DNA from: an uncultured Erysipelotrichaceae bacterium
GTDB taxonomy: Bacteria; Bacillota_I; Bacilli_A; RF39; UBA660
NCBI GenBank assembly: GCA_902785135.1
Contig: CACZXL010000002.1
Location: 10,710-74,709, forward strand
DNA: 64,000 nucleotides
Reading direction: 5' to 3'
In this document: positions 17,853 to 47,579 of the stretch, piece after piece
How the letters are laid out: each line of letters begins with the position of its first letter
Numbering within the stretch: position 1 is the stretch's first letter
Program-made: the position numbers and the translations under genes
Notes under the pieces: model-generated
The model's input: only the letters and a program-made list of their open reading frames with translations
Told to the model about the DNA's origin: nothing
Database searches by the model: none

Positions 17853-17874
17853 AAAACGAGTTTTTTCTCGTTTT
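17853..17874 (-). terminator. rho-independent terminator enclosing the stop codon of the 1505-aa gene
   Basis: AAAACGAG tttttt CTCGTTTT hairpin followed by a T-tract on the minus strand. Confidence 0.45.
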
Positions 17875-20800
17875 AATCTATTATATTTTTACTAGAAATT
17901 GTAATAACTGGTCTTACTTCTTTTTCTTTGTTTCCAGAGTCTGCGAGTATAGATGCTACATCACTACTAATTGATGTTAAATATGTAGATAATTTATTAA
18001 CATCTATATTAGTTTGAACACCATAAACATCATGTTCAATCTCTGAATTAACCGCATTCATTAACCAGAAATCATTATTAAATAGCCATGATTTATCACT
18101 TAAATTTAATGATTCTAAATATTCATAATCTTCAAATGTAAATAATCTTACTTTTGATGTTACATATACTCCACTAGTACACATACCTTTATCAATTGTA
18201 GTACCACCATAAGAAGCACCTTCAAGTGACGAAGGATCATCACAAACTACTTGATCTTGTAATACAGTCTTATCAAGTGAATTCTTACTAAACCAATCAT
18301 TATTTATATAATTATTAATCTTAGATTCACTCCATTTATAGATACTACTATCAGTATGATTCATCTTCTTTTGAATTGTTTCAGAATCCGCAAGTAGTGT
18401 TAAAACTTGATCATTATTTTCTTCATCATTAACAGTTTTAATAACATGCCAGTTAACACCTGCATAATTAACTTCATCTCCTATTTCATATTCATTTGGA
18501 GAGAATTCTTTTTCTTTAGCTAATTCTACTGGTATATATTCTTCCATATTTAATATAGAAACTGTATTAATAAACGCAGTACCTGTTTCTCTTTCAGGCA
18601 TATAAAGCATTATTTGTAGATAAACTGATTCACCTGGTTCTATTACTTTGTTAGATAAAGCTGTTGATTGAAGAACTCCCCCTACAACAAACCAATCTTT
18701 ATTATATGGGTCAGTTGAATCAAAAATCAATCCATCTGGTATATCTTCTTGAACCAATTTAACGTACCCTGGTCTATAAGAATCATTAGTAATCTTAATA
18801 CCATAGTATACTTTAGCATTCGCATGTAATGTATTTCTAACATTAAGTAATACAGTTGATTCATTATTATAATTTGTTGTATCTATTGTATTATTATAAT
18901 TTAAATCTATTTTAGTAATGTATTTATTAATATCAAAACCAAATATTCTTCTTCTAATAAGCCCCATATCCATATTAGTAAATTTAGTTGTTTCTTGAGT
19001 AACATTTATACCATTAGATTCACCATTAACAGGTTTACTTATAATTTCCGCTAAACCTTCATCAATCTTATATGCATCTGAATCTATTGATGTATCTTCT
19101 GTACCATAACGAAGTGCGACATCATATTGAGCATTTTTATATTTAATTCTTACTTTGTATAAACCAATATCTAAATCTTTAAACTCATAATAACCATTTT
19201 TATCAGTAGTAACTGGTTCTGCTGCTCTTTTAACTTTTCCATCTTCTATTTTATAAATATTAACAATTAAATTTGGTACTAGTTCTTCATTATTTTGTCT
19301 AACACCATCTTCATTATCATCTATAAATACTCTTCCTGAAATAGTTCTACTAATAATACTATATGTAATTTTATTTGATGTTTTCTTTTCTAAATCTTCA
19401 CTCTCACCAGAAAAATCATTTATATATTTGTTTCCAAACTTATTATTTGTAGGTCTAATAGATATTCTTATTCCATCAATTGTTTGATTATTTTCAATAT
19501 CTAAACCTTTTATTCTAATTGCAGTCGAAGATGTATATTCATCAAAGTTACATGCTTCAAATTCTATATCTTCATTCTCTATATCACCTATTATTGTCTT
19601 TGAATCTAAATTACTACATAGTAATTCTACATCAGATAAATTTGATGGTACCGATACTTTTACCTCATAATTACCATTAACAACAGATCCTCTCTCATCT
19701 TTATCATATGGTAGTATATCAGTAATAACAAAATCATTTACATCATTACCAGTATTATTAAATGCACTTAAAATATAACTAAATTCAGTATCTTTATCAA
19801 TAACACTAGATCCTTCTTGTCTTTGAGATAACATTACTGTTTGTGAACTTGTTCCATAAATTGTAAAAGGAGTTATTTTTGAATATATTTCACTTGAATC
19901 ATGTTCTCCATTAATATTTATTGGATCAATACTAGAAGTAACTGTAATAGGTATATTTTCTCCATTAAAACTAGTCTTTAATTTAGCATTAAAGTATATA
20001 TCATCAATCGCTATATTAGGTTTAGCCCATGGAAGTACATATACTAAATCAGTATAACTACCATTTACTACTACTTCTGGACTTCCTAATGAAGCATCTG
20101 GAATATAATCTAAATATTCATTAGGTATTTTAACAGTAATTCTTACATCTTTTATGAACCAAGAATCATCTGCCCCTACTTTATTATTTAGATCATCTAT
20201 ATAAGTAGATAATTTATAATTAATTATTTCATCTTCATCAACATTATAATTAACTTTAATTGAATCATCTGCTTTTTTATTTGTAACAGTTAAACTTTGT
20301 CTAACAGTATAATTAACTATTCTTAAAGCATCACCGTATTGCTTAGTACTATGTAAATCAACAGTATCTCCAGTAATTGTAGGTTTAATATAGTTATTAG
20401 GATTTAAAATATTAGAAGTAACATATTCTTCATCTATAGAAGGTACATAATAATATAAATTAGAATCAGTATCAGATGTAGATGCGACTACTGATGCTTG
20501 ATATGTTCTTGTTATATCTGGTACATTCTTTACTCTTAAATATACTAAAACAGTCACTTTAGCATCTTCTGGTAGTTTAATACCTTCCTTAGTTTGAATA
20601 ACTATTTTTGTTATAGGTATTTCATTATTTTCATCATCTCTAGCATCCCTAATCTTAGAAAAAGTTAATTCTTGATGTTCAGAATTAGGTTTAATACATG
20701 GTCCACCATATATATTCATTATTTGATCTTTATTTAATGTAGATAAATCAATATTAGAACATTGCGGAATCGCTAATTCTTGATCTTCTTGACTTAATCT

Positions 20801-35210: not shown

Positions 35211-38200
35211 TTACTCCAATACTATATTATGTGTTGAAACTGTTATAACTGGTCTTACTTCTTTACCTGTATTAGCAGTAGCTGTTTTATTAATTTTATT
35301 TGTTCTATCTATATACATAGCTTTATTATGTACTGAATTTTGTTGAATACCATAATCAACTGGATTATATACAGCAGAACCATCTTTTTTAGCTATACTA
35401 TCACCATAAGCATTTATATATGGTTGTAAGTATTCTGGTGATATATAATCAGAATTTTGTAACCAGAAATCTCTACTTCCATTTAACCAAGATACATCAC
35501 TTAATCCTGCTCCTCCAGCAGCTTGTGATTTAGTTAAATATGAGTATTCAGCTAATGTTAATAATCTAACTTTAGATGTTGTATACATTCCTGAAATACA
35601 TGTTCCTTCACTTGCCATTGTTCCACCATATGATGCAGTTTGTAATCCTGAAGCATCATCACAAATTACTTGATCATATAATGTTGGTAAGTTTAATGTA
35701 TTAGTATTTTGCCATAAATTATTTAAGTATCCATTAATTTGTGAACTACTCCATCTATATGTTTCATCACTAGTTAATGTATGACCTTTATTTTCTGATA
35801 TAGTTCCAGAATCTGCCATTAATGTTAATATTTGGTTTCTATTTAAGTAAGAAGTAACGTCTCTTTCTTGTTCTTCTGTTAACTCACCATCAACATATCC
35901 TAAATCTACAATTGCTTGTTCTCTAGAAATATTATTAACAACATTAATAACATGCCAGTTAACTCCTGCATAAGTTAATGAATCACCTATTTTATAATCA
36001 TCATGACTAGATTCAGTCTTGTCATCTACTAAAACTTCAGGATCATACATTGTACTTTGAAGTACACTTGCAGTATTTAAGAATACTCCAGCTTCTTCTT
36101 GATTAGGCATATATAAAACTATTTGAAGATATTTTGTTTCTCCTGGTTTAATAACAGTATCTTCTAATGCTCTAGATTGTATTACACCATTTACTTCAAA
36201 CCAATCTTGGTTAGCTGGATCAGAACTATCAAACATCATTCCAGTTGGAATACTTTCTTCAATTAGATTAATATATCCTGACTTATATGAAGTATTTGTT
36301 ATAGATATACCATAATATACTTTAGCAGTAGCATTTAAACTATTTCTAACAGTTATAGTAACACTTGATTGATTATCATAATTAGTAGTATTAATTGAAC
36401 CATTATATGCTAAATCAACTCTTGTTATATATTTTTTCATATCAAAGCCTAAGCCACGTTTTGGAATAAATCCAATATCCATATCTTCAGCTGTTGTTAT
36501 TTCTTTAGTAAGTCTAATACCATTTGGATCATCAGGTATCTTCTTATTAGATATTTCTGCATTTCCGTTATCATCAACTTTATATGCATCTGAATCTTTA
36601 GAAGTATCTTCAGTAGCATATCTTAAAGTTAAATCATATTTATCTACTTCAAATGAGAATCCAATTTTATATCTACCTTTATCTAAATTCTTAAACTCAT
36701 AATAACCATTTTTATCTGTTGTAGCTTCAGCTACTGAAGATACATTATTGTTATTATCTATACTAAATAATGTAACTGAAATTCCAGATAAATATTTTTC
36801 ATTTCCATCTTTAACACCATTTCCAGTAACATCTATAAATGCTCTACCAGAAATCTTTCTTGTAACAACTTTAACTTTTATAACATTTGAATGATTCTTA
36901 GAATGAGTACTAGTTTCACCCATAAAGCTGTTATTATATGTATCACCATAATTATTATTCTTAGTTTTTAATGATAATTTAATATCTCCCATGTATTGTC
37001 CATGTGGAATATTAATATTTGATACTTTAATTGCTGTAACATTATCAACGTATTCTTCTGTAATATCACAATCATTCCATACATTTTGAGTATTATTAAC
37101 TTCTTTTTTAATATTTGCTGGAGTTTGTGATGAACACTTAATAGTTACTCCTGATAATGAATCTGGTAATTCAACTTTCGCACTATATGAACCAGATACA
37201 ATTGAATTATTTTCATCTTTAGAATATGGGAATACATCAATTATTGCATAATCATCAACATCAGTTCCTGTATTGTTATATGCTTTTAAAGTATAATTAA
37301 TTTCGCCATTTTTCTCAATTACAGTTCCACTATTACCTACTTCTTGTTGAACTATAATACTATTAAATCCTGTAGCATAAATTGTATATTTTGAAGATAA
37401 TGCTCCAACTATACTATTATCAGTTTCTCCATTAATATTTTGTGCATAAACTGAACTTTCCACAGTGATTGGTATTGGTGAATCATCTTCATTAGCATGT
37501 AATGTTGGTTTAATTCTAGTTCTGAATTCTATTTCAGGTATTTTCATATTAGGTTTAGTATAAGGTAATCTATAGAATAAATATGTACCATCTGCTCTAG
37601 ATTCAACACTTTCTGGTTGCATTAAATCATTATCTTTCATATATTCCATTTCATTTGGAATTTTAACTGAAACAATTAATGAATTAATATACCAAGAATC
37701 ATCTGCTCCTACAGTTTCATTATTATCTTCTATTATTGTCTTAACATTATAAGTAATAGTTTCATTATCTTTAATATCATAATTAGTTTTAGTAGATCCA
37801 TCTGAATTCTTATTCTTAACAGTTAATTCTTCTCTTGAAGTGAAACTAACTATTCTTAAAGAATCACCGAATGTACTATCATCTCCAGCAATTATTTCTC
37901 TACCTCTATATTGAGTCTTTTTATAGTTGTTTGGATTACATAAACTATCTTCTTCAAGTGATATGATTGGTGAATAGTAAATTAATTCTGAATCATAATC
38001 AGATGATGAAGTAACAACTGTTGCTTGATATGTTTGAGTTATATCTGATACATTTCTAACTCTAATATTAAATTCAACAGTTACAGAAATATTATCAGGA
38101 ACTTTAACTCCCTCTTTTGTTTGTATAATTGCTTTTGTTATATGTATTTCTTTATCTCCATCTTTAGCAGCTGTAATTCTATCAAATGTTTCTTCAACAC

Positions 38201-40010
38201 CTTCATTAGCTCTAATACATGGACCACCATATAAGTTTTGAATTTGATTTACATCATAATTTGCTAAATTACTAGCAACTGTAGCACATTGATTAATTGC
38301 CATTTCTTTATCATCTTCATCAGAGAAGTTTATTGAAGCAACATCATTTGCTACATAATTGCTTGAATCCCATGATCCTGAAACAAATTTAACTTCAAAA
38401 TCGCTTGGAGATATTCCTTCACACTTAGAACCTCCACAACTTAATTTAATATCATAATCTTTTCCATCTTCAATAGGTATAAATCTATATGCATTATCAT
38501 CAATTTTAAATACTTCTTTTAGCCCTTGATCAGATAATGTCTTATTATAATTAAATTTAGTTATATATTTGATTGTTGTTCCTTTTGATACAGCTCCTGT
38601 ACCATTAGTCATATTAACGCCAGCTACATTCTTATTAGTTGCTATCTTAGAACCAGTATTATCATAGAATGCAGTAGATACAGAAAAATCTGAATTTTCA
38701 TAATATTTATTAACTACACTAGCTGTTGCATTATTAAGTGCTAATGTAGCTCCTGTACTTGAACTTACACTACCATTAGCTGTATTCATATTAACAGTTA
38801 TATCTCTTTTTCTATCAGCTTTTGTTCTTGGTGAAAATACAGTTATTGCTACTGTAGATATATAATTATCTTTATTAGCAATTGAATTATTATCAGCACC
38901 TACACTTGGATATCCATAAGTTGCTACAAAATCATTAATTGATATTCCATAAGTATTATTTGATTTATTTGTTACTGAAACTTTACCAGGTGCAACTATT
39001 TCTTTATTTTTACTATTTGAATCAGATGTACTATATGGCATATTAACAACTATAGGTTCAATAACACCTTCATTCTTTTGAGCATATAATCTAATCCATT
39101 CTTCTTTAACAATTGGTGCTTCTGTACCATCTTGTGTAAATGATGCATCAAAATTAATTGATCCAGTTGGACTTGATAAACCTTTAATTCCAGCTGCTGC
39201 ATCACCATCAATTTTAATACCAGCTATATAAGTAATATATCTTCCAACTTTACCTTCATATACTGCACTTTGATGTTCACCAGTTGATGTCAATATATTT
39301 AATGAAGCAGTAGCTTCTTTTGAAGAAACAACTGTTGGCATATAGTTATTAAATCCAGGTGTAGAATTATAACTATTATTTTCATAAGAATAATAATTAA
39401 CACCTTCAGATATATTTCCTAAATATATACCTTCTTCTGTATCTGTACTTTCTTTTATATTAAATTTAGGATTTATCATAGTACCATTTGGTGCTCCTAA
39501 AACATATAATGTAATCGAATCATCTACAGAACTATATGTATCAGTTCCATCTAATGTATATTCACAAGTTGTCTTACCTGGAGCTTCATTTCTACTACAA
39601 GATACATACTTAGCTTCATCTTCTGTTAAAGTAACTGTTACTTTGATTTTTCTATCTTCAATCGTAGTTGCAGTTCCATCTTTAGCAGATATCGCAAAAT
39701 TAAATTCATATGTCAACATATCATATGATCTTACTATTCTGTTTGTTGAATTAGAATCATTACCTGCAACAAATCCTTCTACTTGAGAATATGCTGGAGC
39801 ATTTTCATTAGAATAATCTAATCCATCATTCACAAATGAACCATTACCAGTTTTAATAGAAGTCATAGTAGCTTTACTAACTCTAAAGTCATTATCACCA
39901 CTATTCGCACTTGTTACTGTATATATAACAAAGCTTAATCCTAATAAAACTATTAATAATGTTCCTAATATCATTATTTTTTTCTTTTTACTATTACCCA
40001 TACTTTTCAC
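35211..40010 (-). CDS. large (1599 aa) surface protein, paralog of 17873..22390 (SdrD-B-like domain plus W-rich C-terminal module)
   Basis: Motifs shared with the 1505-aa protein: NRIVRS.D, NP.F.IKE.TDTE.G..LG, GGPCI(K/R).N, ITK.IIQTKEG.K.P....VTV......RV.NV.DIT.TYQA.VV.S.SD.DS, GADDSW(F/Y)I, ISGR.FID...GV, GVNWHVI, DFWL.N, KEVRPVIT.S..NI. Confidence 0.8.
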   Translation of the reverse strand: MKSMGNSKKKKIMILGTLLIVLLGLSFVIYTVTSANSGDNDFRVSKATMTSIKTGNGSFVNDGLDYSNENAPAYSQVEGFVAGNDSNSTNRIVRSYDMLTYEFNFAISAKDGTATTIEDRKIKVTVTLTEDEAKYVSCSRNEAPGKTTCEYTLDGTDTYSSVDDSITLYVLGAPNGTMINPKFNIKESTDTEEGIYLGNISEGVNYYSYENNSYNSTPGFNNYMPTVVSSKEATASLNILTSTGEHQSAVYEGKVGRYITYIAGIKIDGDAAAGIKGLSSPTGSINFDASFTQDGTEAPIVKEEWIRLYAQKNEGVIEPIVVNMPYSTSDSNSKNKEIVAPGKVSVTNKSNNTYGISINDFVATYGYPSVGADNNSIANKDNYISTVAITVFSPRTKADRKRDITVNMNTANGSVSSSTGATLALNNATASVVNKYYENSDFSVSTAFYDNTGSKIATNKNVAGVNMTNGTGAVSKGTTIKYITKFNYNKTLSDQGLKEVFKIDDNAYRFIPIEDGKDYDIKLSCGGSKCEGISPSDFEVKFVSGSWDSSNYVANDVASINFSDEDDKEMAINQCATVASNLANYDVNQIQNLYGGPCIRANEGVEETFDRITAAKDGDKEIHITKAIIQTKEGVKVPDNISVTVEFNIRVRNVSDITQTYQATVVTSSSDYDSELIYYSPIISLEEDSLCNPNNYKKTQYRGREIIAGDDSTFGDSLRIVSFTSREELTVKNKNSDGSTKTNYDIKDNETITYNVKTIIEDNNETVGADDSWYINSLIVSVKIPNEMEYMKDNDLMQPESVESRADGTYLFYRLPYTKPNMKIPEIEFRTRIKPTLHANEDDSPIPITVESSVYAQNINGETDNSIVGALSSKYTIYATGFNSIIVQQEVGNSGTVIEKNGEINYTLKAYNNTGTDVDDYAIIDVFPYSKDENNSIVSGSYSAKVELPDSLSGVTIKCSSQTPANIKKEVNNTQNVWNDCDITEEYVDNVTAIKVSNINIPHGQYMGDIKLSLKTKNNNYGDTYNNSFMGETSTHSKNHSNVIKVKVVTRKISGRAFIDVTGNGVKDGNEKYLSGISVTLFSIDNNNNVSSVAEATTDKNGYYEFKNLDKGRYKIGFSFEVDKYDLTLRYATEDTSKDSDAYKVDDNGNAEISNKKIPDDPNGIRLTKEITTAEDMDIGFIPKRGLGFDMKKYITRVDLAYNGSINTTNYDNQSSVTITVRNSLNATAKVYYGISITNTSYKSGYINLIEESIPTGMMFDSSDPANQDWFEVNGVIQSRALEDTVIKPGETKYLQIVLYMPNQEEAGVFLNTASVLQSTMYDPEVLVDDKTESSHDDYKIGDSLTYAGVNWHVINVVNNISREQAIVDLGYVDGELTEEQERDVTSYLNRNQILTLMADSGTISENKGHTLTSDETYRWSSSQINGYLNNLWQNTNTLNLPTLYDQVICDDASGLQTASYGGTMASEGTCISGMYTTSKVRLLTLAEYSYLTKSQAAGGAGLSDVSWLNGSRDFWLQNSDYISPEYLQPYINAYGDSIAKKDGSAVYNPVDYGIQQNSVHNKAMYIDRTNKINKTATANTGKEVRPVITVSTHNIVLE

Positions 40011-40907: not shown

Positions 40908-41960
40908 CTATTTTCTATTAAATATCATATTAATAACTAAACCTAATCCTATACATAAACTAGAAATTGATACTAGTATTGATATAAATGGTATTAGATC
41001 TAATACATAAATAACTAATAAACCAATTAATAATACTAATAATCTATTCTTAATCTTATTTCCTAAAATCATATTACTAAAATAATAACTAGTAAATATT
41101 GTTGATAAATAAGCACATACAATAAATAAATCTAATAGTATTAAACCTGTACTTAATCCTACCATAGTAATCATAATAATCATAGCTGCGATAGGAACAA
41201 CAAATAATGTTAATGCACCATATCCTAAATTCTTTAATATAGTATTTTTATCTTGTTTAGCAATTTTTTCATATAATTTAGGAAATAATAATAACATAAT
41301 AACTGCGATTAATAATGCATTAGCAAATGAGAATACTTTACCCATTAATACGCTAACAAATGTTGCTTTTGTATCTACTTTTACACCTATATTATTATTC
41401 TTTTCTTTCTTAATTGATCCAATTACTGCAGTTTTACTTATATTTGTTTTTGAATCAGATGAATATTTTAATACACCTTTGATAACTGTATTATCTTTAA
41501 CAACAATTTCACTTGCGTATATAGTTACATTACCTTCAACAGTACCTGAAACAAATACTTTATTTCCTACAAGATAAACATTTCTTCCAGCTTTACTATC
41601 AAATCTTACTGTTTCTCCTGCAACATATGCATCTCTTTCAAAAGTCGAATCATTAACAGATACATTATATCCAGCAATAAATGCATCTCTTGATTTTTGT
41701 GAATTAACTTTTACTACATTACCTGAAGTAAATAAGTATTCACTTTCCCCACTTTGATTAACTATATTACCTGCTGAGAATAATATACCATCAACTGTTG
41801 AATCAATTTCAACATCATTACCTGCAACAAATGCAGATCCGTTAAAATCATCACTTACAGAAACACTATCATCTGCTTTATACAATGTATCAGTTAAAGC
41901 AAATACTGGTAAAGCTGTAAACATGATTAAAACTAATAAAATTTTAATATACTTTTTCAT
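40908..41960 (-). CDS. secreted beta-helix (bactofilin-like repeat) domain protein with a C-terminal polytopic membrane anchor
   Basis: Signal peptide, then repetitive (A/V)GN.V...S.V.G motifs (FVAGNDVEIDSTVDGILFSAGNIV, YVAGETVRFDSKAGRNVYLVGNKVFVSGTVEGNVTIY), then 4 or 5 TM helices. Confidence 0.45.
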   Translation of the reverse strand: MKKYIKILLVLIMFTALPVFALTDTLYKADDSVSVSDDFNGSAFVAGNDVEIDSTVDGILFSAGNIVNQSGESEYLFTSGNVVKVNSQKSRDAFIAGYNVSVNDSTFERDAYVAGETVRFDSKAGRNVYLVGNKVFVSGTVEGNVTIYASEIVVKDNTVIKGVLKYSSDSKTNISKTAVIGSIKKEKNNNIGVKVDTKATFVSVLMGKVFSFANALLIAVIMLLLFPKLYEKIAKQDKNTILKNLGYGALTLFVVPIAAMIIMITMVGLSTGLILLDLFIVCAYLSTIFTSYYFSNMILGNKIKNRLLVLLIGLLVIYVLDLIPFISILVSISSLCIGLGLVINMIFNRK

Positions 41961-41994: not shown

Positions 41995-42717
41995 TCAAAT
42001 ACAATCATTAATATTACAAATAATATTGTCAAATTTCTCTTTATATTTGTCAACATCATCTTTAGATTTCATTGTCCAAGCAACAACAGTTTTCTTCTTT
42101 TTAAAGTTTTTAACTTTTTTATTCTTATATAATTTCTTATCAACCGCTAAAAAATCAGGTTTAGATATAAATATATCAAATGGTAATAAGAACAAATTAT
42201 TAATAAATATATTTTTAATCTTACTTCTAAAACTACCTATTAATAATCCTCTTAAATAATCATTTTTATGAAACCTAAAATAAGAGACTAAAAATGGATC
42301 AAAACTTTGAATCGCAACTTCTCCTTTATATGTTTTTAATCTTTCTAAAAGTAATCTAGGAAGTTCAAATCCTTTAACATCATATTTTATTTCAATTAAT
42401 ATCGGTACTTTTCCATCTATTAGTTCTAATACTTCATCAAGTGATGGAATAGTATAATTAGTATCTAATAATTTAATCTTTTGCATTTCATCTAAAGTTA
42501 ATTCTTTAATCTTTCCTGTTTTCTTAGTCATTCTATCTAATTCCATATCATGAAAAACAACTATTTTTTTATCTTTAGTTAAATGTACATCAAATTCTAT
42601 TACATACCCTTTATTAATAGCGCTTTTAAATGCCTTAATAGAATTTTCAGGAACTTTATCATTATCAAAAATACCTCTATGCGCAATAGTATTTTTTACT
42701 AAAAAATTATCTTTCAT
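41995..42717 (-). CDS. glycerophosphodiester phosphodiesterase family protein
   Basis: IAHRG...ENS..AF..A...GY.IEFDVHLTKD...VVFHD fits the GDPD signature. Its start overlaps the rSAM stop (ATGA). Confidence 0.75.
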   Translation of the reverse strand: MKDNFLVKNTIAHRGIFDNDKVPENSIKAFKSAINKGYVIEFDVHLTKDKKIVVFHDMELDRMTKKTGKIKELTLDEMQKIKLLDTNYTIPSLDEVLELIDGKVPILIEIKYDVKGFELPRLLLERLKTYKGEVAIQSFDPFLVSYFRFHKNDYLRGLLIGSFRSKIKNIFINNLFLLPFDIFISKPDFLAVDKKLYKNKKVKNFKKKKTVVAWTMKSKDDVDKYKEKFDNIICNINDCI

Positions 42718-43697
42718 AAATCACACCCTACATCTTTTAAATTATAACTTCCTGTAACTGCGTAAGTTAAGCATTTAAGTCCACCTCTACATCTATTAGA
42801 ATGTTCACACTTCATGCAGTCTTCTGGAATAGTTTTTTTTCTTAAATCTTTTAATATTTCATTATTCTTATATATATCATACATACTATCAACTAGTACA
42901 TTACCAACAACTATAGGCATTCTTCTACAAGGAACTAGATCACCATTTTCCATAACAGTAAGTAAAGTATCACCACAGGTACAAGAATATGCATATTCAT
43001 TTGTTCTAGTAAATTGTAATGCCCTATTCATAGATATTCTTGTTTTAGACTTTTTATTCATTTTTAATCTTTCTTTTTTCATAATATCTAAATATTCTTT
43101 AGTCTCTTCTTTAGATAAAGTTAATTCTTTATCCATAGATCCACCAAGTGGTATATATCTATCAGACCATATATTATCTACTTTTAATCTTTTTCCATAT
43201 CTAACTACTTTTGGAAATTCTTTATAATTAATATGATTCGCAGTAAAACTGATAGATGTAAATATACCAGCTTTTTTCAAGTTTCTAATTCCCTTTTTTA
43301 TTTGATTATATGTTCCTTTTCCTCTTATATAATCATTTATCTTTTTACCGCCTTCTAAACTAACCTGAACATAATCAGGATTATAACTCTTTAGTTTTAA
43401 TGCAGTATCTAGATCTATTAAAGTACCATTAGTTAGTATTGAAAAACTAACTTTATTATCTTTCTTTATTAAATCTAATATCTTAAATAAATGAGGATTA
43501 CAAAAAGGTTCTCCTCCTGTTATATTTATATGTCCTCTCATACCAAGTTTATCTATTAAATTAATAAATTCATAATAAATATGTTCTAACTTTTTATAAG
43601 AAATACACATAGGAACATGATCTTCTTGATAACAATGTAAACATCTAAGATTACAGTTTTCAGATAGATGCCACTGTAAGATAAAGGTTCTTACCAT
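42714..43697 (-). CDS. radical SAM enzyme with a C-terminal SPASM-type auxiliary Fe-S cluster domain (peptide or protein-modifying maturase-like)
   Basis: CNLRCLHC (Cx3Cx2C) about 20 aa from the true start MVRTF, a GGEP-type glycine motif (ITGGEPF), and a C-terminal Cys cluster C.C..(20)..C...CMKCEHSNRCRGGLKC. The ORF-track N-terminal extension (43698..43766) is only the out-of-frame reading of the upstream gene's Cys-repeat DNA. Confidence 0.8.
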   Translation of the reverse strand: MVRTFILQWHLSENCNLRCLHCYQEDHVPMCISYKKLEHIYYEFINLIDKLGMRGHINITGGEPFCNPHLFKILDLIKKDNKVSFSILTNGTLIDLDTALKLKSYNPDYVQVSLEGGKKINDYIRGKGTYNQIKKGIRNLKKAGIFTSISFTANHINYKEFPKVVRYGKRLKVDNIWSDRYIPLGGSMDKELTLSKEETKEYLDIMKKERLKMNKKSKTRISMNRALQFTRTNEYAYSCTCGDTLLTVMENGDLVPCRRMPIVVGNVLVDSMYDIYKNNEILKDLRKKTIPEDCMKCEHSNRCRGGLKCLTYAVTGSYNLKDVGCDL

Positions 43698-45640
43698 GAA
43701 CCTCCACCTCCACAAGAAGAACATCCTCCTCCACAAGATGAGCATCCTCCTCCACAAGAAGAACATCCTGAACTAGAACCACTATATGTTGGAGTTGGTG
43801 AATATATTTGATCTGGTATTCTATCAAATACATCTATATTTACTTTACTTAAATCTGATTTCGGAATCTTAATATTTTCAAACTTCTCTATCCATTTTTT
43901 AGATAAATTTAATACGTAAGTATATGGAAGTATTTGATAGAAATAATCAGGCATTTCTTCTACTAATGTTTCTAATTTGTCTTTTTCTACTTTATCTAAG
44001 AATTCTTTAAAACCAGATATTTCTACTTTTAAATCTTCTCCATATCTACTCTTTCTAGTCATAAAAATGCTAAAGAATAATGTTACAAATACTGATATAA
44101 ATCCTACATAATATAAATAATATATTTTTTGAGGTAAATCTTCTAAATATCTATAAGATACAAACATTAATATTGCGCTTACCCATACTAATGTTAAACT
44201 TAAATATTTAAGAACGTAGCCCACTCTTTCATTAATAACCCATCTATATTCATTATCTAACTTATCCTCTATTTTTTTAAATACTGTATAGAATGTTTGA
44301 TGCTGACTTAAATAAATTTCTTCACTACCTTTTATTAATTCTTTTAATACTATTTGTTCATATTCATTTAATTCTGATACTTTCTTATTATATTTTTCTA
44401 ACTTTTTCTTATAATCTTCATCATCTTTATTTGGTTTTTGACCCTTAATTATAATAGCGTGATCTTTACCTTCTTTAATAGTTATCATCTTTTTGGCCGC
44501 AAGTTCTATTATTAAACTAGTTACTAATTTTCTAGAATAATTATTTGAATTTACATAACCTAGCTCGGCAGAAGATAAATTTCTAGGTGGCATATAATTA
44601 ATTACTTTTTCTTTCTTTTCATAATCTTTACCAAATATTAACCATAATATGAATGTTATAACCGCTAATGAAATACATATAATAATACATGTTAATGATT
44701 TATAACCATAATTAAATTCACCATTAGCAAAATAATTATCTGGTAGTTCTATATCTACTGTTAAAGATTTATCTAATACTTTAGGACAATTACCTTTACT
44801 AGATTTATAAGTTTTTTCTTCATTTAATCTTGCATAAACTTTATTACCAGTAACAGTATAATCAACCGAATCAGTAACTTCACATTTGCGTGTTTTATCC
44901 ATAAAGAAATGAACATTATCTTTTTCTATTGATTTAGGCATAGTAATTTCAATTGTAGGATTCTTTATATTAGTTCCCCAATAATCACCATATGCATGAA
45001 ATATAAACTCATCATATCCTTCATAAGGATCAGTACCCATATCATATGTATACTTAATAACATAGTTCTTTAAACCTGTATCTAATGTTTTATATTGGCT
45101 ACCTATTTTTATTCTAGGTTTCTTTTTAACTATATCTGTTGAATAATTATAAGTCTCATCATTCAAGCCTGTTGGATCTTCCGCTCTTAAATTACTAAGA
45201 ATAGATTTTCTTCTAATAGTCTTACCATCTTTATTAGTATATTTAAACCATTCTGGAGTAAATTTATATATTCCATGATGACCAGCTTCATAAAAGTTAA
45301 TACCAATATCTTCTTCTACATCCACCTTTAAATCATCTTTTACATCTAATTTAACAGTATAGTTTTCTATAGTAAAACCATCTGCTACAACTGTTTCATT
45401 TGTTTCTAAATTTATTTTTTGAGAAAGTAATGGAAATAGCATTACAATTAAACAAATAATTGTAATAGAATACATTACAACTTTTCCTAGTTTTCTATAT
45501 GTTTCGTTAGAACCTTCACTACTACTTTTAACAATAATTGGAATTAATATAATTATAAAAAATATAAAAGTCCACATACTATCACTACCTTTAATAAGAT
45601 TATAACATAATAAAAAAATATGCTCTATAAATTTAAGCAT
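43691..45640 (-). CDS. DUF2207-like polytopic membrane protein ending in a (CSSCGGG)x3 cysteine-repeat tail
   Basis: N-terminal hydrophobic segments, an extracytoplasmic domain of about 270 aa, a TM, the DUF2207-type motif YMPPRNLSSAELGYV, and two more TMs. C-terminus ...SGSSSGCSSCGGGCSSCGGGCSSCGGGGSW. The TGG-TAA end overlaps the ATG of the rSAM gene. Confidence 0.65.
   Translation of the reverse strand: MLKFIEHIFLLCYNLIKGSDSMWTFIFFIIILIPIIVKSSSEGSNETYRKLGKVVMYSITIICLIVMLFPLLSQKINLETNETVVADGFTIENYTVKLDVKDDLKVDVEEDIGINFYEAGHHGIYKFTPEWFKYTNKDGKTIRRKSILSNLRAEDPTGLNDETYNYSTDIVKKKPRIKIGSQYKTLDTGLKNYVIKYTYDMGTDPYEGYDEFIFHAYGDYWGTNIKNPTIEITMPKSIEKDNVHFFMDKTRKCEVTDSVDYTVTGNKVYARLNEEKTYKSSKGNCPKVLDKSLTVDIELPDNYFANGEFNYGYKSLTCIIICISLAVITFILWLIFGKDYEKKEKVINYMPPRNLSSAELGYVNSNNYSRKLVTSLIIELAAKKMITIKEGKDHAIIIKGQKPNKDDEDYKKKLEKYNKKVSELNEYEQIVLKELIKGSEEIYLSQHQTFYTVFKKIEDKLDNEYRWVINERVGYVLKYLSLTLVWVSAILMFVSYRYLEDLPQKIYYLYYVGFISVFVTLFFSIFMTRKSRYGEDLKVEISGFKEFLDKVEKDKLETLVEEMPDYFYQILPYTYVLNLSKKWIEKFENIKIPKSDLSKVNIDVFDRIPDQIYSPTPTYSGSSSGCSSCGGGCSSCGGGCSSCGGGGSW
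43694..43770 (-). repeat. three tandem 21-nt coding repeats (GGATG(T/C)TC(T/A)TCTTGTGGAGGAGGA) encoding (CSSCGGG)x3 across the gene junction
   Basis: Read directly from the sequence. Confidence 0.8.
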
Positions 45641-45643
45641 ATT

Positions 45644-46468
45644 TTATTCATAATCATCTAAGAAAGAATATTTCTTATCGCCTTTTTTATATCCAAGAAT
45701 ACAATTTAAATTAACATTACTTGTAGATATAAATATATTATTTTCTATATTCTTATTCTTTTCTTTTAGTTTTTTTATTAGATTTTTCATCTCTTGTCTT
45801 TTACTCTTTCCATCATCAAGAATAGAACATCCTTCAAGTAAAGGACAAGCACAATTTATAAAATCTAATTCATTATATTTTTTCCAAGAAATAATATCTT
45901 CTTCATGTATTAAATACATTGGTCTTATTAATTCTATTCCTTCAAAGTTATCACTATGTAGTTTTGGCATCATAGTCTTAATCTCAGATGAATAAAACAT
46001 AGATAAAAGAGTTGTTTCTATTACATCAGAAAAATGATGACCTAACGCAATCTTATTACAGCCTAGTTCCTGAGCTTTAGAATATAGATATCCTCTTCTC
46101 ATTCTTGCACACATATAACATGGTTCATTTGGTGTTATTTTCTTAATAACATCAAATATATCACTTTCAAATATTTCTATTGGTATATCCATTAATTTAG
46201 CATTATCTTTTATATATTGAAGATTATAGTCATTATAACCTGGATTCATACATACAAATCTAGCTTCAAATTTAAACTTACCATGTCTAATTAATTCTTG
46301 GATACATTTAGCCATTAAAAATGAATCTTTACCACCAGAAATACAAACCATAACTTTATCATTTTCTTTTATTAATTCGTAATCCGCTACTCCCTTAACA
46401 AACTTAGACCAAATCTCTTTTCTAAATTTAGTAATAATACTTCTTTCTATTTCTTTACTCTTTTCCAT
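45644..46468 (-). CDS. TtcA-family PP-loop tRNA thiolase-like protein
   Basis: PP-loop CISGGKDS and the Cys motifs CYMCARMRRG and CACP. It overlaps the cysteine desulfurase gene upstream and lies 3 nt from the DUF2207-like gene downstream. Confidence 0.65.
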   Translation of the reverse strand: MEKSKEIERSIITKFRKEIWSKFVKGVADYELIKENDKVMVCISGGKDSFLMAKCIQELIRHGKFKFEARFVCMNPGYNDYNLQYIKDNAKLMDIPIEIFESDIFDVIKKITPNEPCYMCARMRRGYLYSKAQELGCNKIALGHHFSDVIETTLLSMFYSSEIKTMMPKLHSDNFEGIELIRPMYLIHEEDIISWKKYNELDFINCACPLLEGCSILDDGKSKRQEMKNLIKKLKEKNKNIENNIFISTSNVNLNCILGYKKGDKKYSFLDDYE

Positions 46469-47579
46469 TATATTCCTCTAGTGTTTCATCAAATATCTCA
46501 AAGAACTTATCTATTTCTTCTTTAGTAGTTAAATGAGATAAACTAATTCTCATAGATGAATTTGCAAGGTTCTTATCATTTGTTAAAGCATATATACTTT
46601 TAGAAGGAGCGTTCTCTGGGCAACAACTTGTTTTAGAAGAAATATATACTTCTTTTTGACCTAGTAATTGTACAAATACATTTGATATAACACCTTTAAC
46701 ACTAAAGTTAATAGTATTAGGAATAGAATTAGGTGTACTATTTATTATGAAGTCTCTCTCTTTTAATTTTTCTATAACTAAATCATGTAACTCTGTTATA
46801 TATTTTTTTCTTTCATCTAATTTAAATAACGCTAATTCTAAAGCTTTATCAAGCGCTAAAACAGAACCTGTTACTGGTGTTCCTGATCTATAAATAGTTG
46901 TACTTTTACCACCATATATAATTGGTTTAAGACCTACTTCTTTTTTCTTAACAAGTAAACCAAATCCATTTATACCATAAAATTTATGTGGTGCGATAGT
47001 TACTAAATCTACGTCAGTAAAATCTATTCTTTCTTTACCTATTATTTGAGATGCATCTGTATGAAAGTATAGATTAGGATACTCTTTTAATATTCTTCCT
47101 ATTTCTTCAATTGGTTGTCTAATACCTAGTTCACTATCAACAGATGTAATACTAACTAAAATAGTATCTTCTCTTATTAAAGATTTTAATTCTTCTATAT
47201 CAATTAATCCATCTTTAGTAACGCCAACCATATCTACTTCAAAACCTAGTTCTTGCATTCTTTGAGCTGGCGCAACTATTGAACTATGTTCAAGTTTAGA
47301 AATAATAATATGTTTACCTCTAGATTTATATCTTTCAGGTAATCCTTGAATAACTAAATTATTACTTTCTGATGCTCCTGAAGTATATATTACTTCATCT
47401 TCTGATACTCCTAAATTTTTTGCAATATTTTTAGTAGCTTTATCTATTGCTTCTTTAGCTTCTACTCCTAATCTATGCATGCTATTTGGATTAGCAAAAT
47501 ATTTTGTAGTAGCTTCATTAAATACATCTAGTACTTCTTTGTCTACTGGTGCATTAGCAGCGTAATCTAAATAAATCAT
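46455..47579 (-). CDS. cysteine desulfurase (class V aminotransferase, NifS/IscS-like)
   Basis: IYLDYAAN..., PLP-lysine region TIAPHKFYG, and the active-site Cys region SSKTSCCPE. Confidence 0.75.
   Translation of the reverse strand: MIYLDYAANAPVDKEVLDVFNEATTKYFANPNSMHRLGVEAKEAIDKATKNIAKNLGVSEDEVIYTSGASESNNLVIQGLPERYKSRGKHIIISKLEHSSIVAPAQRMQELGFEVDMVGVTKDGLIDIEELKSLIREDTILVSITSVDSELGIRQPIEEIGRILKEYPNLYFHTDASQIIGKERIDFTDVDLVTIAPHKFYGINGFGLLVKKKEVGLKPIIYGGKSTTIYRSGTPVTGSVLALDKALELALFKLDERKKYITELHDLVIEKLKERDFIINSTPNSIPNTINFSVKGVISNVFVQLLGQKEVYISSKTSCCPENAPSKSIYALTNDKNLANSSMRISLSHLTTKEEIDKFFEIFDETLEEYNGKE

What the first reader, a model, noticed from the sequence alone, without database searches (positions are those of the whole stretch)
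42714..45640. DUF2207-type membrane protein with a cytoplasmic (CSSCGGG)x3 tail, translationally coupled to a radical-SAM/SPASM maturase-like enzyme
**What the sequence shows**
- The 649-aa protein has the DUF2207 layout: an N-terminal hydrophobic region, an outside domain of about 270 aa, a TM, the conserved YMPPRNLSSAELGYV motif, two more TMs, and a C-terminal tail.
- As I recall the family, that tail is normally Gly/Ser-rich. Here it reads SGCSSCGGGCSSCGGGCSSCGGGGSW, six cysteines in three perfect heptad repeats. The positive-inside rule places the tail in the cytoplasm.
- The last codons (TGG TAA) overlap the ATG of a 327-aa radical SAM enzyme with CNLRCLHC near the N-terminus and a Cys-rich SPASM-like C-terminal domain. 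Peptide and protein maturases such as sactisynthases, SCIFF maturases, QhpD and anSME have this architecture.
- I found no separate small precursor-peptide ORF nearby.

**Inference**
The Cys-repeat tail is the in-cis substrate of the rSAM/SPASM enzyme, for example for thioether crosslinks. This would be a membrane-protein-embedded RiPP-like modification. I do not recognise the arrangement as a described system.

An alternative is that the tail is a metal or Fe-S binding module and the rSAM acts on something else.
Basis: partly seen in the sequence, partly recalled or inferred. Interest (0 to 1): 0.85.

Follow-up and report, generated by a model that had tools for sequence, protein, structure and literature searches.

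The report
Membrane-protein Cys tail with coupled radical-SAM enzyme
In a group of uncultured gut bacteria, a membrane protein of unknown function ends in a cysteine-repeat tail, and its gene almost always overlaps the gene for a radical-SAM enzyme of the kind that chemically modifies peptides, so the enzyme most likely modifies that tail; no such arrangement has been described.

Summary
A 649-aa DUF2207 protein (43691-45640, minus strand) ends in (CSSCGGG)x3-GSW. The ATG of a 327-aa radical SAM/SPASM gene (42714-43697) overlaps its Trp and stop codons.

Comparative genomics supports a functional two-gene module:
- 62 of 63 species-level genomes found through the enzyme carry the Cys-tail coding sequence directly upstream, with the same overlap. 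The flanking genes differ.
- In 73 informative metagenome loci found through DUF2207 alone, 26 of 28 Cys-tailed genes have the overlapping rSAM. None of 45 without a Cys tail does.
- Relatives nested in or near the Cys clade that lack the cysteines also lack the enzyme.
- The last 14 residues (GGGCSSCGGGGSW) are invariant despite free synonymous change.

The tail is predicted to be cytoplasmic and disordered. The enzyme has no leader-recognition domain. It is closest in fold to anSME, SuiB, SkfB, CteB and PqqE, and reaches no curated family cut-off.

Best reading: the enzyme modifies the tail cysteines of the membrane protein. The chemistry is unknown; a thioether to Gly or Ser is the leading guess.

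Caveats: all evidence is genomic, a few Cys tails lack an adjacent rSAM, and a metal-binding CxxC tail is not excluded. No literature describes the arrangement. I rate it a new variant of a known kind, of moderately high interest.

The parts
43691..45640 (-). DUF2207 membrane protein gene (649 aa), the proposed substrate protein
   Evidence: The ORF is listed. It matches PF09972 and PF20990 above their cut-offs. The AF2 model shows two N-terminal helices, a beta-sandwich at residues 90-300, a TM helix, a cytoplasmic helical/beta domain, a TM hairpin, cytoplasmic helices and a disordered tail.
44690..45424 (-). Predicted extracytoplasmic beta-sandwich domain (aa 73-317)
   Evidence: It lies between TM2 and TM3, and its flanks are poor in K/R. 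AF2 predicts beta strands at residues 90-299 with pLDDT of 80-95. Foldseek returns only generic beta-sandwich matches.
44060..44215 (-). TM4-TM5 hairpin (aa 476-527) that returns the chain to the cytoplasm
   Evidence: Hydropathy peaks fall at residues 476-494 and 509-527. The K/R-rich sequence TRKSRYGEDLK follows TM5.
43772..43870 (-). Disordered Ser-rich linker before the repeats (aa 591-623)
   Evidence: AF2 pLDDT is below 50 over residues 591-642. Length and sequence vary among homologues.
43703..43765 (-). Three CSSCGGG heptads (aa 626-646), the proposed modification sites
   Evidence: The sequence is shown and the 21-nt tandem repeat. Across 62 homologous tails, the last CSSC is invariant, the second is present in 53 of 62, and the two Cys of the third in 50 and 34 of 62, all with free synonymous codon use.
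43691..43702 (-). Invariant C-terminal Gly-Ser-Trp (aa 647-649) and the stop codon. The rSAM start codon lies inside this stretch.
   Evidence: GGGGSW ends nearly all DUF2207 tails, both Cys-type and canonical. In tcATGGTAA the start codon position is fixed and reads ATG, TTG or GTG in different genomes.
43701..43710 (-). Shine-Dalgarno-like GAGGTGGAGG formed by the Gly codons, 3-9 nt upstream of the rSAM ATG
   Evidence: Read directly from the sequence. That it acts as a ribosome-binding site is an inference.
42714..43697 (-). Radical SAM/SPASM enzyme gene (327 aa), the proposed tail maturase
   Evidence: It matches PF04055 and PF13186. The best NCBIfam hits are TIGR04340 and TIGR04303, both below cut-off. 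The AF2 model has pLDDT 78 and pTM 0.80. Foldseek top hits are anSME, SuiB, SkfB, CteB and PqqE.
43632..43655 (-). CX3CX2C radical SAM cluster motif (aa 15-22, CNLRCLHC)
   Evidence: C15, C19 and C22 are invariant in alignment A1.
42723..42983 (-). SPASM region with seven invariant Cys (C239, C257, C294, C297, C303, C309, C325)
   Evidence: The invariant columns come from alignment A1. PF13186 matches residues 239-298.

Best explanation
The two genes form a self-contained module. DUF2207 is a five-TM membrane protein whose disordered C-terminal tail lies in the cytoplasm.

In one clade of gut Bacilli/Mycoplasmatota-like bacteria, the family's usual tail (GGGFSGGGSGGGGGGSW) has become one to four CSSCGGG units followed by GSW. 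The downstream radical SAM/SPASM gene starts inside the last codons of DUF2207. Its ribosome-binding site is built from the Gly codons, so it is probably translated by ribosomes finishing DUF2207.

The enzyme has no leader-peptide recognition domain. I propose that it acts directly on the tail cysteines of the full-length membrane protein, as anSME acts on whole sulfatases.

The most likely chemistry is radical formation of intramolecular thioether (sactionine-type) bridges from Cys sulfur to the alpha-carbon of a nearby Gly or Ser, one or two per heptad. This would turn a floppy Gly-rich tail into a set of small rigid rings.

**Shown here:** gene anatomy, overlap, conservation, co-occurrence, co-loss, and the fold class of the enzyme.

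**Inferred:** translational coupling, that the tail is the substrate, the type of modification, and what the modified tail does.
For: 1. **The pair is conserved while its neighbourhood is not.** Among 63 species-representative genomes found through the rSAM (49-90% identity), only DUF2207 followed by rSAM is shared. GDPD and the PP-loop gene occur only in the 5 closest loci, and LemA lies upstream in 30.
2. **The junction is conserved.** The start codon sits at the same position over the Trp and stop codons and reads ATG (24), TTG (36) or GTG (1).
3. **Unbiased test.** In loci found through DUF2207 alone, 26 of 28 Cys tails have the rSAM, against 0 of 45 non-Cys tails (Fisher p = 9e-18, not corrected for shared ancestry).
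4. **Cys loss goes with rSAM absence.**
   - P0148 has a Gly tail and is nested in the Cys clade in a rough NJ tree. It has no rSAM within 8 kb downstream or 2.7 kb upstream.
   - L095/P0351 is 61% identical to an rSAM-linked relative. Its tail is cut exactly where the repeats begin, and it has no rSAM.
   - The tail-less P0162 group near the base of the clade (5 loci) has no rSAM.
5. **Divergent Cys tails still have the rSAM.** This holds for the deep-branching tail of P0388 and the single-unit tail of P0273.
6. **The tail is selected as protein.** GGGCSSCGGGGSW is invariant in 62 of 62 tails, except one Ser-to-Ala change, while codons vary freely (for example Cys TGT 35 / TGC 27).
7. **The enzyme belongs to the peptide/protein-modifying SPASM group.** It has seven invariant SPASM Cys. 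PDB sequence hits are SkfB and CteB. Fold hits are anSME, SuiB, SkfB, CteB and PqqE at E about 1e-13 and TM about 0.7-0.75. The best NCBIfam models are the ACGX-system and GeoRSP maturases.
8. **Access.** The tail is predicted cytoplasmic and disordered, so a soluble Fe-S enzyme could reach it.
9. **No alternative precursor gene exists**.
10. **Chemical precedent.** Streptosactin carries Cys-x-x-Ser and Cys-x-x-Gly sactionine bridges installed by one SPASM enzyme. In CteB, a substrate Cys ligates an open site on an auxiliary cluster (PMC8172795).
Against: - There is no experimental or structural evidence of any modification.
- The Cys-tail clade is essentially one lineage of DUF2207, so the large counts reflect few independent events. 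I can point to about three losses.
- The L095 loss could be a single deletion that removed adjacent DNA, not a functional co-loss.
- Two Cys-tailed genes lack an adjacent rSAM: L078 (LemA-DUF2207 followed by an unrelated gene) and L089 (followed by a lipoprotein gene, with no rSAM on the 6.5-kb contig). The second copy in L043 is followed by non-rSAM sequence. The enzyme would then have to act in trans or be absent.
- Another DUF2207 lineage has 1-2 Cys in its tail without an overlapping downstream gene.
- CxxC units spaced by Gly are classic metal-binding knuckles and need no enzyme.
- The enzyme also scores about 100-115 bits against tetrapyrrole-modifying SPASM enzymes (NirJ, AhbC/D), so a non-peptide substrate cannot be excluded from sequence.
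- The tail has only Cys, Ser and Gly. It lacks the Asp/Glu/Asn/Thr acceptors of ranthipeptides.
Confidence: 0.6

Rival explanations
1. The tail is a metal-binding or Fe-S-binding module and is not a substrate. Pairs of CxxC knuckles would hold Zn or Fe, alone or between subunits. They might also dock onto or supply an auxiliary cluster of the rSAM. This would tether the enzyme to the membrane, where it acts on something else such as a lipid, an envelope precursor or another protein.
For: - CxxC-GGG-CxxC is the spacing of zinc knuckles. The invariant last unit CSSCGGGG fits the DnaJ pattern CXXCXGXG (read from the sequence).
- Tight co-occurrence and coupling fit a docking partnership as well as an enzyme-substrate pair.
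- The SPASM region has 7 conserved Cys, not 8. This could leave an open cluster site for an external thiolate, as reported for CteB (PMC8172795).
Against: - Many family members have a single CSSC unit with only 2 Cys (L026, L041, L061, P0273, P0369). A single unit cannot form a Cys4 site alone, yet these members keep the rSAM.
- The tail matches no Pfam zinc-finger model even at E <= 10.
- No third conserved gene supplies another substrate or pathway.
- All of the closest structural relatives act on the peptide or protein that binds them.
Confidence: 0.17
2. The tail is the substrate but the chemistry is not a thioether crosslink. Two alternatives stand out. One is anSME-like oxidation of Cys (or Ser) to formylglycine. 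The other is SbtM-like conversion of Cys to a thiooxazole heterocycle, which would give a reactive or metal-chelating tail.
For: - The top Foldseek hit is anSME bound to its Cys peptide. Like anSME, this enzyme lacks an RRE and would act on a whole protein.
- The third-best NCBIfam hit is the thio(seleno)oxazole maturase SbtM, at 121 bits.
- A thiooxazole is reported in the SbtMa peptide (PMC12538549).
Against: - All of these scores are far below family cut-offs.
- The anSME recognition motif C/S-x-P/A-x-R is absent from the tail.
- SbtM aligns only through its C-terminal 300 residues and has an extra N-terminal domain that is missing here.
- This rival is a sub-variant of the main explanation and shares its lack of direct evidence.
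Confidence: 0.15
3. The linkage is inherited synteny without direct functional meaning. The rSAM would have an unrelated housekeeping role, and the Cys-rich tail would be a lineage-specific variant of a low-complexity tail.
For: - All carriers belong to one group of related gut lineages.
- Low-complexity tails evolve quickly, and occasional Cys occur in other DUF2207 tails without an rSAM.
- Two or three Cys tails lack the adjacent enzyme.
Against: - The flanks on both sides have been reshuffled many times while the 7-nt overlap survives down to 49-50% protein identity.
- The tail is invariant at the protein level despite saturated synonymous change, which is the opposite of drift.
- Relatives without Cys lack the enzyme.
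- The rSAM family was not seen in any other context among 63 genomes.
Confidence: 0.06

Closest known systems
ACGX-system radical SAM/SPASM protein (NCBIfam TIGR04340) with its ACGX-repeat peptide partner
   Same: - It is the best-scoring curated family, aligned end to end (residues 4-324 against model positions 2-336 of 341).
- It has the same compact architecture without a leader-recognition domain.
- From my own knowledge of the TIGRFAMs description (not checked here), its presumed substrate is a peptide of short Cys-Gly-containing tandem repeats. That would be the same logic as the CSSCGGG repeats.
   Different: - The score is 149 bits against a cut-off of 400, so this enzyme is not a member.
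- The partner there is a small free peptide. Here it is the C-terminus of a 649-aa membrane protein.
- The tail matches no NCBIfam model.
- The ACGX system itself is only a bioinformatic prediction. I found no paper on it.
Anaerobic sulfatase-maturating enzyme (anSME, PDB 4K36-4K39)
   Same: - It is the top structural match (E 1e-13, TM 0.76).
- It is a SPASM enzyme of similar size without an RRE.
- It modifies a Cys or Ser within a full-length protein, not a leader-guided peptide.
   Different: - Sequence identity is about 20%.
- The pair includes no sulfatase, and the tail has no C/S-x-P/A-x-R motif.
- anSME has 8 ligating Cys in the SPASM domain (my own knowledge), against 7 conserved here.
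- anSME does not target tandem repeats.
Sactipeptide and ranthipeptide synthases (SkfB, CteB, AlbA, PapB, GggB)
   Same: - SkfB and CteB are the best PDB sequence hits and are among the top fold hits.
- One enzyme installs several Cys-derived thioethers in repeated motifs.
- Streptosactin shows Cys-x-x-Ser and Cys-x-x-Gly bridges, and both spacings are present in CSSCGGG (PMC8172795).
   Different: - Those enzymes carry an N-terminal RRE and act on short leader-core precursors that are cleaved and exported. Here there is no RRE, leader, protease or exporter.
- NCBIfam scores are 95 against 340 for PapB and 65 against 850 for AlbA.
QhpD/QhpC (quinohemoprotein amine dehydrogenase gamma-subunit maturation)
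   Different: - QhpC is a small soluble subunit with Cys-Asp/Glu bridges.
- It was not among the listed sequence or fold hits.
- There is no membrane protein and no tandem repeat.
Canonical LemA-DUF2207 pairs with the Gly-rich GGGFSGGGSGGGGGGSW tail
   Same: - The domain architecture and membrane layout are the same.
- The terminal GGGGSW is the same.
- LemA lies directly upstream in most loci of both kinds.
   Different: - The canonical tail has Phe/Met/Ser where this clade has CSSC.
- None of the 39 canonical-tail loci with at least 300 nt of downstream sequence has a downstream rSAM.
- The function of the canonical tail and of DUF2207 is unknown. The only functional study I found reports stress-tolerance and biofilm phenotypes in S. 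mutans (PMC10457818).

Membership tests
DUF2207 (Pfam PF09972 + PF20990) | Matches to both the N-terminal and C-terminal domain models above their gathering scores | tested here: met
   PF09972 scores 66.5 bits (cut-off 24.4) and PF20990 scores 97.5 bits (cut-off 33).
DUF2207 (Pfam PF09972 + PF20990) | Gly-rich C-terminal tail ending in G(n)-[SA]-W | tested here: met
   The protein ends in GGGGSW, as do nearly all of about 260 homologue tails inspected. This clade is a Cys-containing variant.
Radical SAM superfamily | CX3CX2C cluster motif and the PF04055 core | tested here: met
   C15, C19 and C22 are invariant. PF04055 scores 96.4 bits against a cut-off of 29.5. The AF2 model shows a partial TIM-barrel fold.
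SPASM subgroup of radical SAM enzymes | C-terminal Cys-rich domain (PF13186) with about seven conserved Cys for two auxiliary clusters | tested here: met
   PF13186 scores 33.1 bits against a cut-off of 21.5. C239, C257, C294, C297, C303, C309 and C325 are invariant. Cluster content itself cannot be tested here.
ACGX system rSAM (TIGR04340) | Score at or above the curated cut-off (400 bits) | tested here: not met
   148.8 bits.
ACGX system rSAM (TIGR04340) | Adjacent ACGX-repeat peptide gene | tested here: not met
   There is no small ORF. The tail has CSSCGGG units, not ACGX units, and matches no NCBIfam model at E <= 10.
GeoRSP system rSAM (TIGR04303) | Score at or above the curated cut-off (400 bits) | tested here: not met
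   139.9 bits. No PqqD-family partner is conserved nearby.
Anaerobic sulfatase-maturating enzyme | Sulfatase partner with a C/S-x-P/A-x-R motif | tested here: not met
   The motif is absent from the tail. No sulfatase is conserved in the neighbourhood. Only the fold is similar.
Sacti-/ranthipeptide synthases | N-terminal RRE (PqqD-like) domain that binds a leader peptide | tested here: not met
   The radical SAM core begins at about residue 5. No PqqD/RRE Pfam hit was found, and there is no N-terminal extension in 12 aligned homologues.
Sacti-/ranthipeptide synthases | Cys-to-carbon thioether in the product | not testable with these tools
   This needs mass spectrometry or NMR of the modified tail.
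RiPP biosynthetic gene cluster (strict sense) | Short precursor with leader and core, plus a protease and/or exporter that releases a peptide product | tested here: not met
   Only DUF2207 and the rSAM are conserved. No peptidase or ABC exporter is shared across loci. The arrangement is therefore RiPP-like protein maturation, not a RiPP cluster.
DnaJ-type CXXCXGXG zinc finger | Match to the zinc-finger model, with paired CxxC units forming Cys4 sites | tested here: not met
   Pfam gives no hit for the tail at E <= 10. Only the last unit fits the pattern, and single-unit tails exist. Metal binding itself cannot be tested here.
Heterocycloanthracin/sonorensin-type Cys-rich repeat bacteriocins | Family model match and an adjacent cyclodehydratase (YcaO-type) | tested here: not met
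   There is only a 'faint' precomputed PF27784 mark on one homologue. The window tail gives no hit, and no YcaO is found in the pair's neighbourhood.

The most novel reading that the evidence does not exclude
A radical SAM/SPASM enzyme covalently remodels the cytoplasmic C-terminal tail of an integral membrane protein. It would install thioether rings or thiol-derived heterocycles in tandem CSSCGGG units, with the enzyme translated from the same message immediately after its substrate. This would be the first RiPP-type radical maturation of a polytopic membrane protein. It would also give the first experimental handle on the enigmatic, near-universal Gly-rich 'GGGGSW' tail of the LemA/DUF2207 (and YgcG-like) membrane systems.
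Probability: 0.45. Interest if true: 0.8.

Novelty: new variant of a known kind. Interest (0 to 1): 0.68.

Why it matters
- **A new substrate class.** Radical SAM/SPASM maturases are known for small leader-guided peptides and a few soluble proteins (sulfatases, QhpC). A dedicated enzyme acting on the tail of a multi-pass membrane protein would extend that chemistry. It would also show that a RiPP-like core can be embedded at the end of a large protein.
- **Abundance.** The pair is common in uncultured, small-genome gut Bacilli/Mycoplasmatota-like lineages of humans, ruminants, rabbits and chickens. More than 3,000 enzyme clusters at 90% identity were found, and retention in reduced genomes implies an important role.
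- **A route into DUF2207.** DUF2207 and its LemA partner are widespread and essentially uncharacterised. A natural variant in which the conserved Gly-rich tail is replaced by an enzyme-dependent Cys module offers a concrete way to ask what that tail does.
- **Testability.** The prediction needs only two genes, anaerobic co-expression and mass spectrometry.

Tried and rejected
- **Context of the enzyme's nearest outgroup.** I could not reach it. The protein search lists only the best 120 hits, all at least 67% identical, so the origin of the enzyme family remains open.
- **First metagenome scan.** A 16-sequence alignment failed because it had no conserved stretch. A 7-sequence alignment worked.
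- **Recovering specific Cys-less relatives.** Only P0148 and P0161/P0388 came back, so the contexts of P0152, P0166, P0167, P0146 and P0151 remain unknown.
- **The GGGCGG[CS]GGGGSW lineage.** Every contig ends about 70-110 nt after the gene. I can only say there is no overlapping start codon, and that L147 has a hairpin after the stop.
- **Tail-only family searches.** NCBIfam and Pfam found nothing.
- **Fold search with the DUF2207 model.** It gave only generic beta-sandwich hits: M1 aminopeptidase N-domains and an oligosaccharyltransferase (OST) complex chain.
- **Literature.** No paper contains both DUF2207 and radical SAM. Searches for ACGX, SPASM+LemA and related terms found nothing relevant.
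- **Rejected: GDPD, PP-loop and NifS-like genes as parts of the module.** They accompany the pair only in the window's own subclade, plus L145 for PP-loop and NifS.
- **Rejected: the 350-aa rSAM ORF starting at 43766.** It is an alternative-frame artefact of the repeat.
- **Rejected: L063 as a counter-example.** There the rSAM's 3' half is fused behind an integrase ORF.

Full report
**1. What is in the window**

All genes around the finding lie on the minus strand of a DNA of about 25% G+C.

The ORF at 43691-45640 encodes a 649-aa protein. It matches both DUF2207 Pfam models above their cut-offs. It ends in ...YSGSSSGCSSCGGGCSSCGGGCSSCGGGGSW. The three CSSCGGG units correspond to a 21-nt tandem repeat.

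Hydropathy gives five membrane segments: residues 19-37, 54-72, 318-336, 476-494 and 509-527. Lys/Arg cluster after TM1, TM3 and TM5. This puts the 245-aa beta-sandwich domain outside and both the central domain and the C-terminal region inside.

An AlphaFold2 model (pLDDT 74.5) agrees with that layout. It leaves residues 591-642 disordered.

The next gene (42714-43697) encodes a 327-aa radical SAM/SPASM protein. CNLRCLHC lies at residues 15-22 and seven further Cys are invariant in the C-terminal third. Its ATG sits in tcATGGTAA, over the Trp and stop codons of DUF2207. The Gly codons just upstream read GAGGTGGAGG.

There is no room for a separate precursor gene. The upstream PP-loop gene ends 3 nt before DUF2207, and the rSAM stop overlaps the start of a GDPD gene.

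**2. Is the pairing more than an accident of this genome?**

*Loci found through the enzyme.* A scan of one genome per species with an alignment of the enzyme returned 63 loci. All are from uncultured gut 'Bacilli bacterium' or Candidatus Faecisoma/Coprosoma-type MAGs, at 49-90% identity.
- In 61 loci an intact DUF2207 gene, or a contig-edge fragment of one, ends ...CSSCGGGG[SA]W directly upstream with the same overlap.
- In L014 the DUF2207 is frameshifted, but the tail sequence is still present.
- L063 is the 3' half of the enzyme gene fused behind an integrase ORF, so it is a disrupted copy.

*Neighbourhood.* Clustering of all neighbouring ORFs shows that nothing else is conserved across the set. 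GDPD, the PP-loop gene and the macro-domain gene accompany the pair only in the five closest genomes. A LemA gene lies directly upstream of DUF2207 in 30 loci. The window itself has no LemA.

*Start codon.* The enzyme's start codon keeps its position but is ATG in 24 loci, TTG in 36 and GTG in 1.

**3. The reverse test**

Loci found through the enzyme cannot show whether Cys tails occur without it. I therefore scanned metagenome contigs with a DUF2207 alignment that included Cys-less relatives.

Of the 80 loci returned, 73 were informative:
- 26 of 28 Cys-tailed genes have the overlapping rSAM.
- None of 45 genes without a Cys tail has one. These are 39 with the canonical Gly tail and 6 tail-less or truncated.
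- Fisher's exact p is 9e-18. This overstates the evidence because the Cys-tailed genes are related by descent.

The two exceptions are real:
- L078 is LemA-DUF2207(Cys tail) followed by an unrelated ORF. Its 67-70% identical relatives do have the enzyme.
- L089 is followed by a lipoprotein gene, and the 6.5-kb contig has no rSAM.

In L043 the enzyme gene is flanked by two Cys-tailed DUF2207 genes. This shows that paralogues exist and suggests one enzyme can serve a substrate encoded elsewhere.

**4. Where the Cys tail sits in the family**

An exhaustive HMMER search of 1.84 billion representative proteins found 6,462 DUF2207 relatives.
- Of the roughly 50 best full-length representatives (down to about 260 bits), nearly all carry CSSCGGG-type tails.
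- Below that score, tails switch to the canonical GGG[FS]SGGG[SFM]GGGGGG[SA]W without Cys.

A rough neighbour-joining tree built with the tails removed places two Cys-less proteins inside the Cys clade: P0148 (Gly/Ser/Arg tail) and P0152 (no tail). The tail-less P0162 group falls near the base of the clade.

Contexts I could retrieve:
- P0148 has no rSAM within 8 kb downstream or 2.7 kb upstream.
- The five P0162-type loci have none.
- L095/P0351 is 61% identical to an rSAM-linked relative. It stops exactly where the repeats would begin and has no rSAM. A single deletion could explain this case.
- Divergent Cys tails do have the overlapping enzyme: the deep-branching P0388 (...CSSCGGGGGW), the single-unit P0273, and P0317 (...GGGSSW).

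A separate lineage has GGGCGG[CS]GGGGSW tails with no overlapping downstream start. Its contigs all end about 100 nt after the gene, so nothing more can be said.

**5. Selection on the tail**

Across 62 tails, the last 14 residues GGGCSSCGGGGSW are invariant apart from one Ser-to-Ala change. Codons vary freely: Cys at -10 is TGT in 35 and TGC in 27, and up to all four Gly codons are used at a given position. The second CSSC is present in 53 of 62. The two Cys of the third are present in 50 and 34 of 62.

Where Cys are replaced, the substitutes are Phe, Ser, Gly or Arg, which recalls the canonical tail. This is purifying selection on the peptide. It is neither drift of a low-complexity region nor mere conservation of a ribosome-binding site.

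**6. What kind of enzyme**

- No curated family claims it. The best NCBIfam scores are ACGX-system rSAM at 149 bits, GeoRSP at 140, SbtM at 121 and ScmE at 116. NirJ/AhbC/D score about 100-115, PapB 95 and AlbA 65. The cut-offs are in the hundreds.
- A profile search of PDB sequences finds SkfB and CteB first.
- The AF2 model (pLDDT 78, pTM 0.80) is closest to anSME bound to its Cys peptide, SuiB, SkfB, CteB and PqqE, at E about 1e-13 and TM about 0.7-0.75.
- The protein begins directly with the radical SAM core. It therefore has no RRE/PqqD-type leader-binding domain, and no such gene is conserved nearby.

This is the architecture of SPASM enzymes that act on a protein or peptide without leader guidance.

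**7. Mechanism proposed**

*Shown.* The two genes form a conserved, overlapping pair. The tail is conserved as protein. The tail is predicted to be cytoplasmic and disordered. The enzyme belongs to the peptide/protein-modifying SPASM fold group. No other candidate substrate gene is present.

*Inferred.* Ribosomes terminating on DUF2207 re-initiate on the enzyme gene. The enzyme then modifies the tail cysteines of the membrane protein.

*Chemistry.* The chemistry cannot be read from sequence.
- I favour sactionine-type thioethers from Cys to the alpha-carbon of Gly or Ser. The nearest sequence relatives with structures are thioether synthases.
- Streptosactin shows Cys-x-x-Ser and Cys-x-x-Gly bridges made by one SPASM enzyme. 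CteB binds a substrate Cys at an open auxiliary-cluster site (PMC8172795).
- Formylglycine formation (anSME-like) and thiooxazole formation (SbtM-like; PMC12538549) are live alternatives.

*Biological purpose.* This is unknown, because the role of the canonical Gly-rich tail and of DUF2207 itself is unknown. The only functional paper I found reports stress-tolerance and biofilm phenotypes in S. mutans (PMC10457818).

**8. Rivals**

- **Metal binding (about 0.17).** The tail could be a metal-binding CxxC module, or a docking site that tethers the enzyme to the membrane for another substrate. The CxxC-GGG spacing and the CXXCXGXG-like last unit favour this. Single-unit tails that still keep the enzyme, and the absence of any third conserved gene, argue against it.
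- **Synteny only (about 0.06).** Pure inherited synteny is unlikely given the reshuffled flanks, the protein-level conservation, and the absence of the enzyme wherever Cys are absent.

**9. Comparison with what is known, and novelty**

The system works like rSAM/SPASM maturation of Cys-containing repeats (ACGX prediction, PapB/freyrasin-type repeats, streptosactin) and like protein-directed SPASM enzymes (anSME, QhpD).
- It is not a member of any of those families by curated score.
- It lacks an RRE.
- It is not a RiPP cluster in the strict sense, because it has no leader, protease or exporter.

Full-text searches found no paper that mentions DUF2207 together with radical SAM, and nothing on the ACGX system. 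Source databases name the enzyme only 'radical SAM protein'.

I classify it as a new variant of a known kind. The pair is abundant: the enzyme search returned 3,116 clusters at 90% identity, several of them seen on dozens of contigs from human, ruminant, rabbit and chicken gut samples.

**10. Verdict**

- Confidence that the tail is the enzyme's substrate is about 0.6.
- Confidence that the product is specifically a thioether is about 0.3.
- Interest is 0.68.

Noticed in passing
L021:3234-3836 and 29 other loci of L001-L063; most of L064-L143; absent from window 1-64000: A LemA-family gene (PF04011, 178 bits) lies directly upstream of DUF2207 in about half of the rSAM-linked loci and in most canonical-tail loci. 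LemA-DUF2207 is therefore the older conserved pair and the rSAM is an add-on. The window's own sub-lineage has no LemA within 64 kb.
   Followed up: partly
window 41995-42717 (-): A GDPD-family glycerophosphodiester phosphodiesterase gene overlaps the rSAM stop codon by 4 nt. This arrangement occurs only in the window's closest relatives (L001-L005, L064, L066, L067), so it is probably not part of the module.
   Followed up: partly
window 45644-47579 (-); L145:5656-7597: A class-V aminotransferase (NifS-like) gene and a PP-loop (TtcA-like) ATPase gene lie directly upstream of DUF2207 in the window. The PP-loop gene is also upstream in L001-L005 and L064-L067, with the NifS-like gene detected only in L001 and L064. 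Both genes also lie upstream in the divergent L145 (DUF2207 43% identical). I did not resolve whether this sulfur-mobilising pair is functionally tied to the Cys tail or the Fe-S enzyme, or is just synteny.
   Followed up: partly
L063:5470-6753: One open reading frame joins a phage-type integrase-like N-terminal half to the C-terminal half of the rSAM (49% identity, residues 38-327), and the end is frameshifted. It looks like a mobile-element insertion into the rSAM gene, or a chimeric assembly.
   Followed up: partly
L043:3956-9075: Two DUF2207 genes flank the rSAM gene; both have Cys tails and they are 55-57% identical to each other. The downstream copy is followed by non-rSAM sequence, which suggests one enzyme may serve two substrates.
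   Followed up: partly
L095:4773-6812 (protein P0351): This DUF2207 is 61% identical to an rSAM-linked relative. It terminates at ...SSSSSSGY, exactly where the Cys repeats would begin, and no rSAM follows. A convergent gene lies downstream. It looks like a deletion that removed the repeats and the enzyme together while leaving the membrane protein intact.
   Followed up: partly
L147:1-7902, L149:1-6929, L150-L152: A different DUF2207 lineage, with LemA upstream, has tails GGGGFSGGGCGG[CS]GGGGSW. All five contigs end 70-110 nt after the gene. About 2 kb upstream on the other strand is an apparent RiPP cluster: a 446-aa rSAM/SPASM, a 45-aa peptide ending ...SGGCGYTDFSCTNVR, an ATP-grasp (TupA-like) and a YcaO.
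   Followed up: partly
window 43698-43766 (-), and proteins P0073, P0093: Read in the rSAM frame, the Cys/Gly repeat gives a Trp/Arg/Phe-rich open extension (MFFLWRRMLILWRRMFFLWRWRF...). Gene callers in public data sometimes start the enzyme there (MWWRW..., MWWWW...). This is a recurrent annotation artefact.
   Followed up: yes
window 7002-17180, 17873-22390, 35211-40010 (all -): Three very large ORFs of 3392, 1505 and 1599 aa. The 1599-aa one has SdrD-B/SpaA-like prealbumin-fold repeats and an N-terminal signal-like segment. They are presumably surface proteins.
   Followed up: no
window 40908-41960 (-): A 350-aa protein with an N-terminal signal-like segment, a repetitive middle region and several C-terminal hydrophobic segments. 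It has no Pfam or NCBIfam family, only a sub-threshold Reticulon hit. It also appears downstream of the GDPD gene in L001 and L064.
   Followed up: no
window 43694-43702 (-), residues 646-648 of the DUF2207 model: In the AF2 model the last residues (G-S-W) are drawn as a short beta bridge. Mean pLDDT for the final block (residues 641-649) is about 61, against about 26-42 for the rest of the disordered tail (residues 591-640). This hints that the invariant terminal Trp may dock onto the protein.
   Followed up: no
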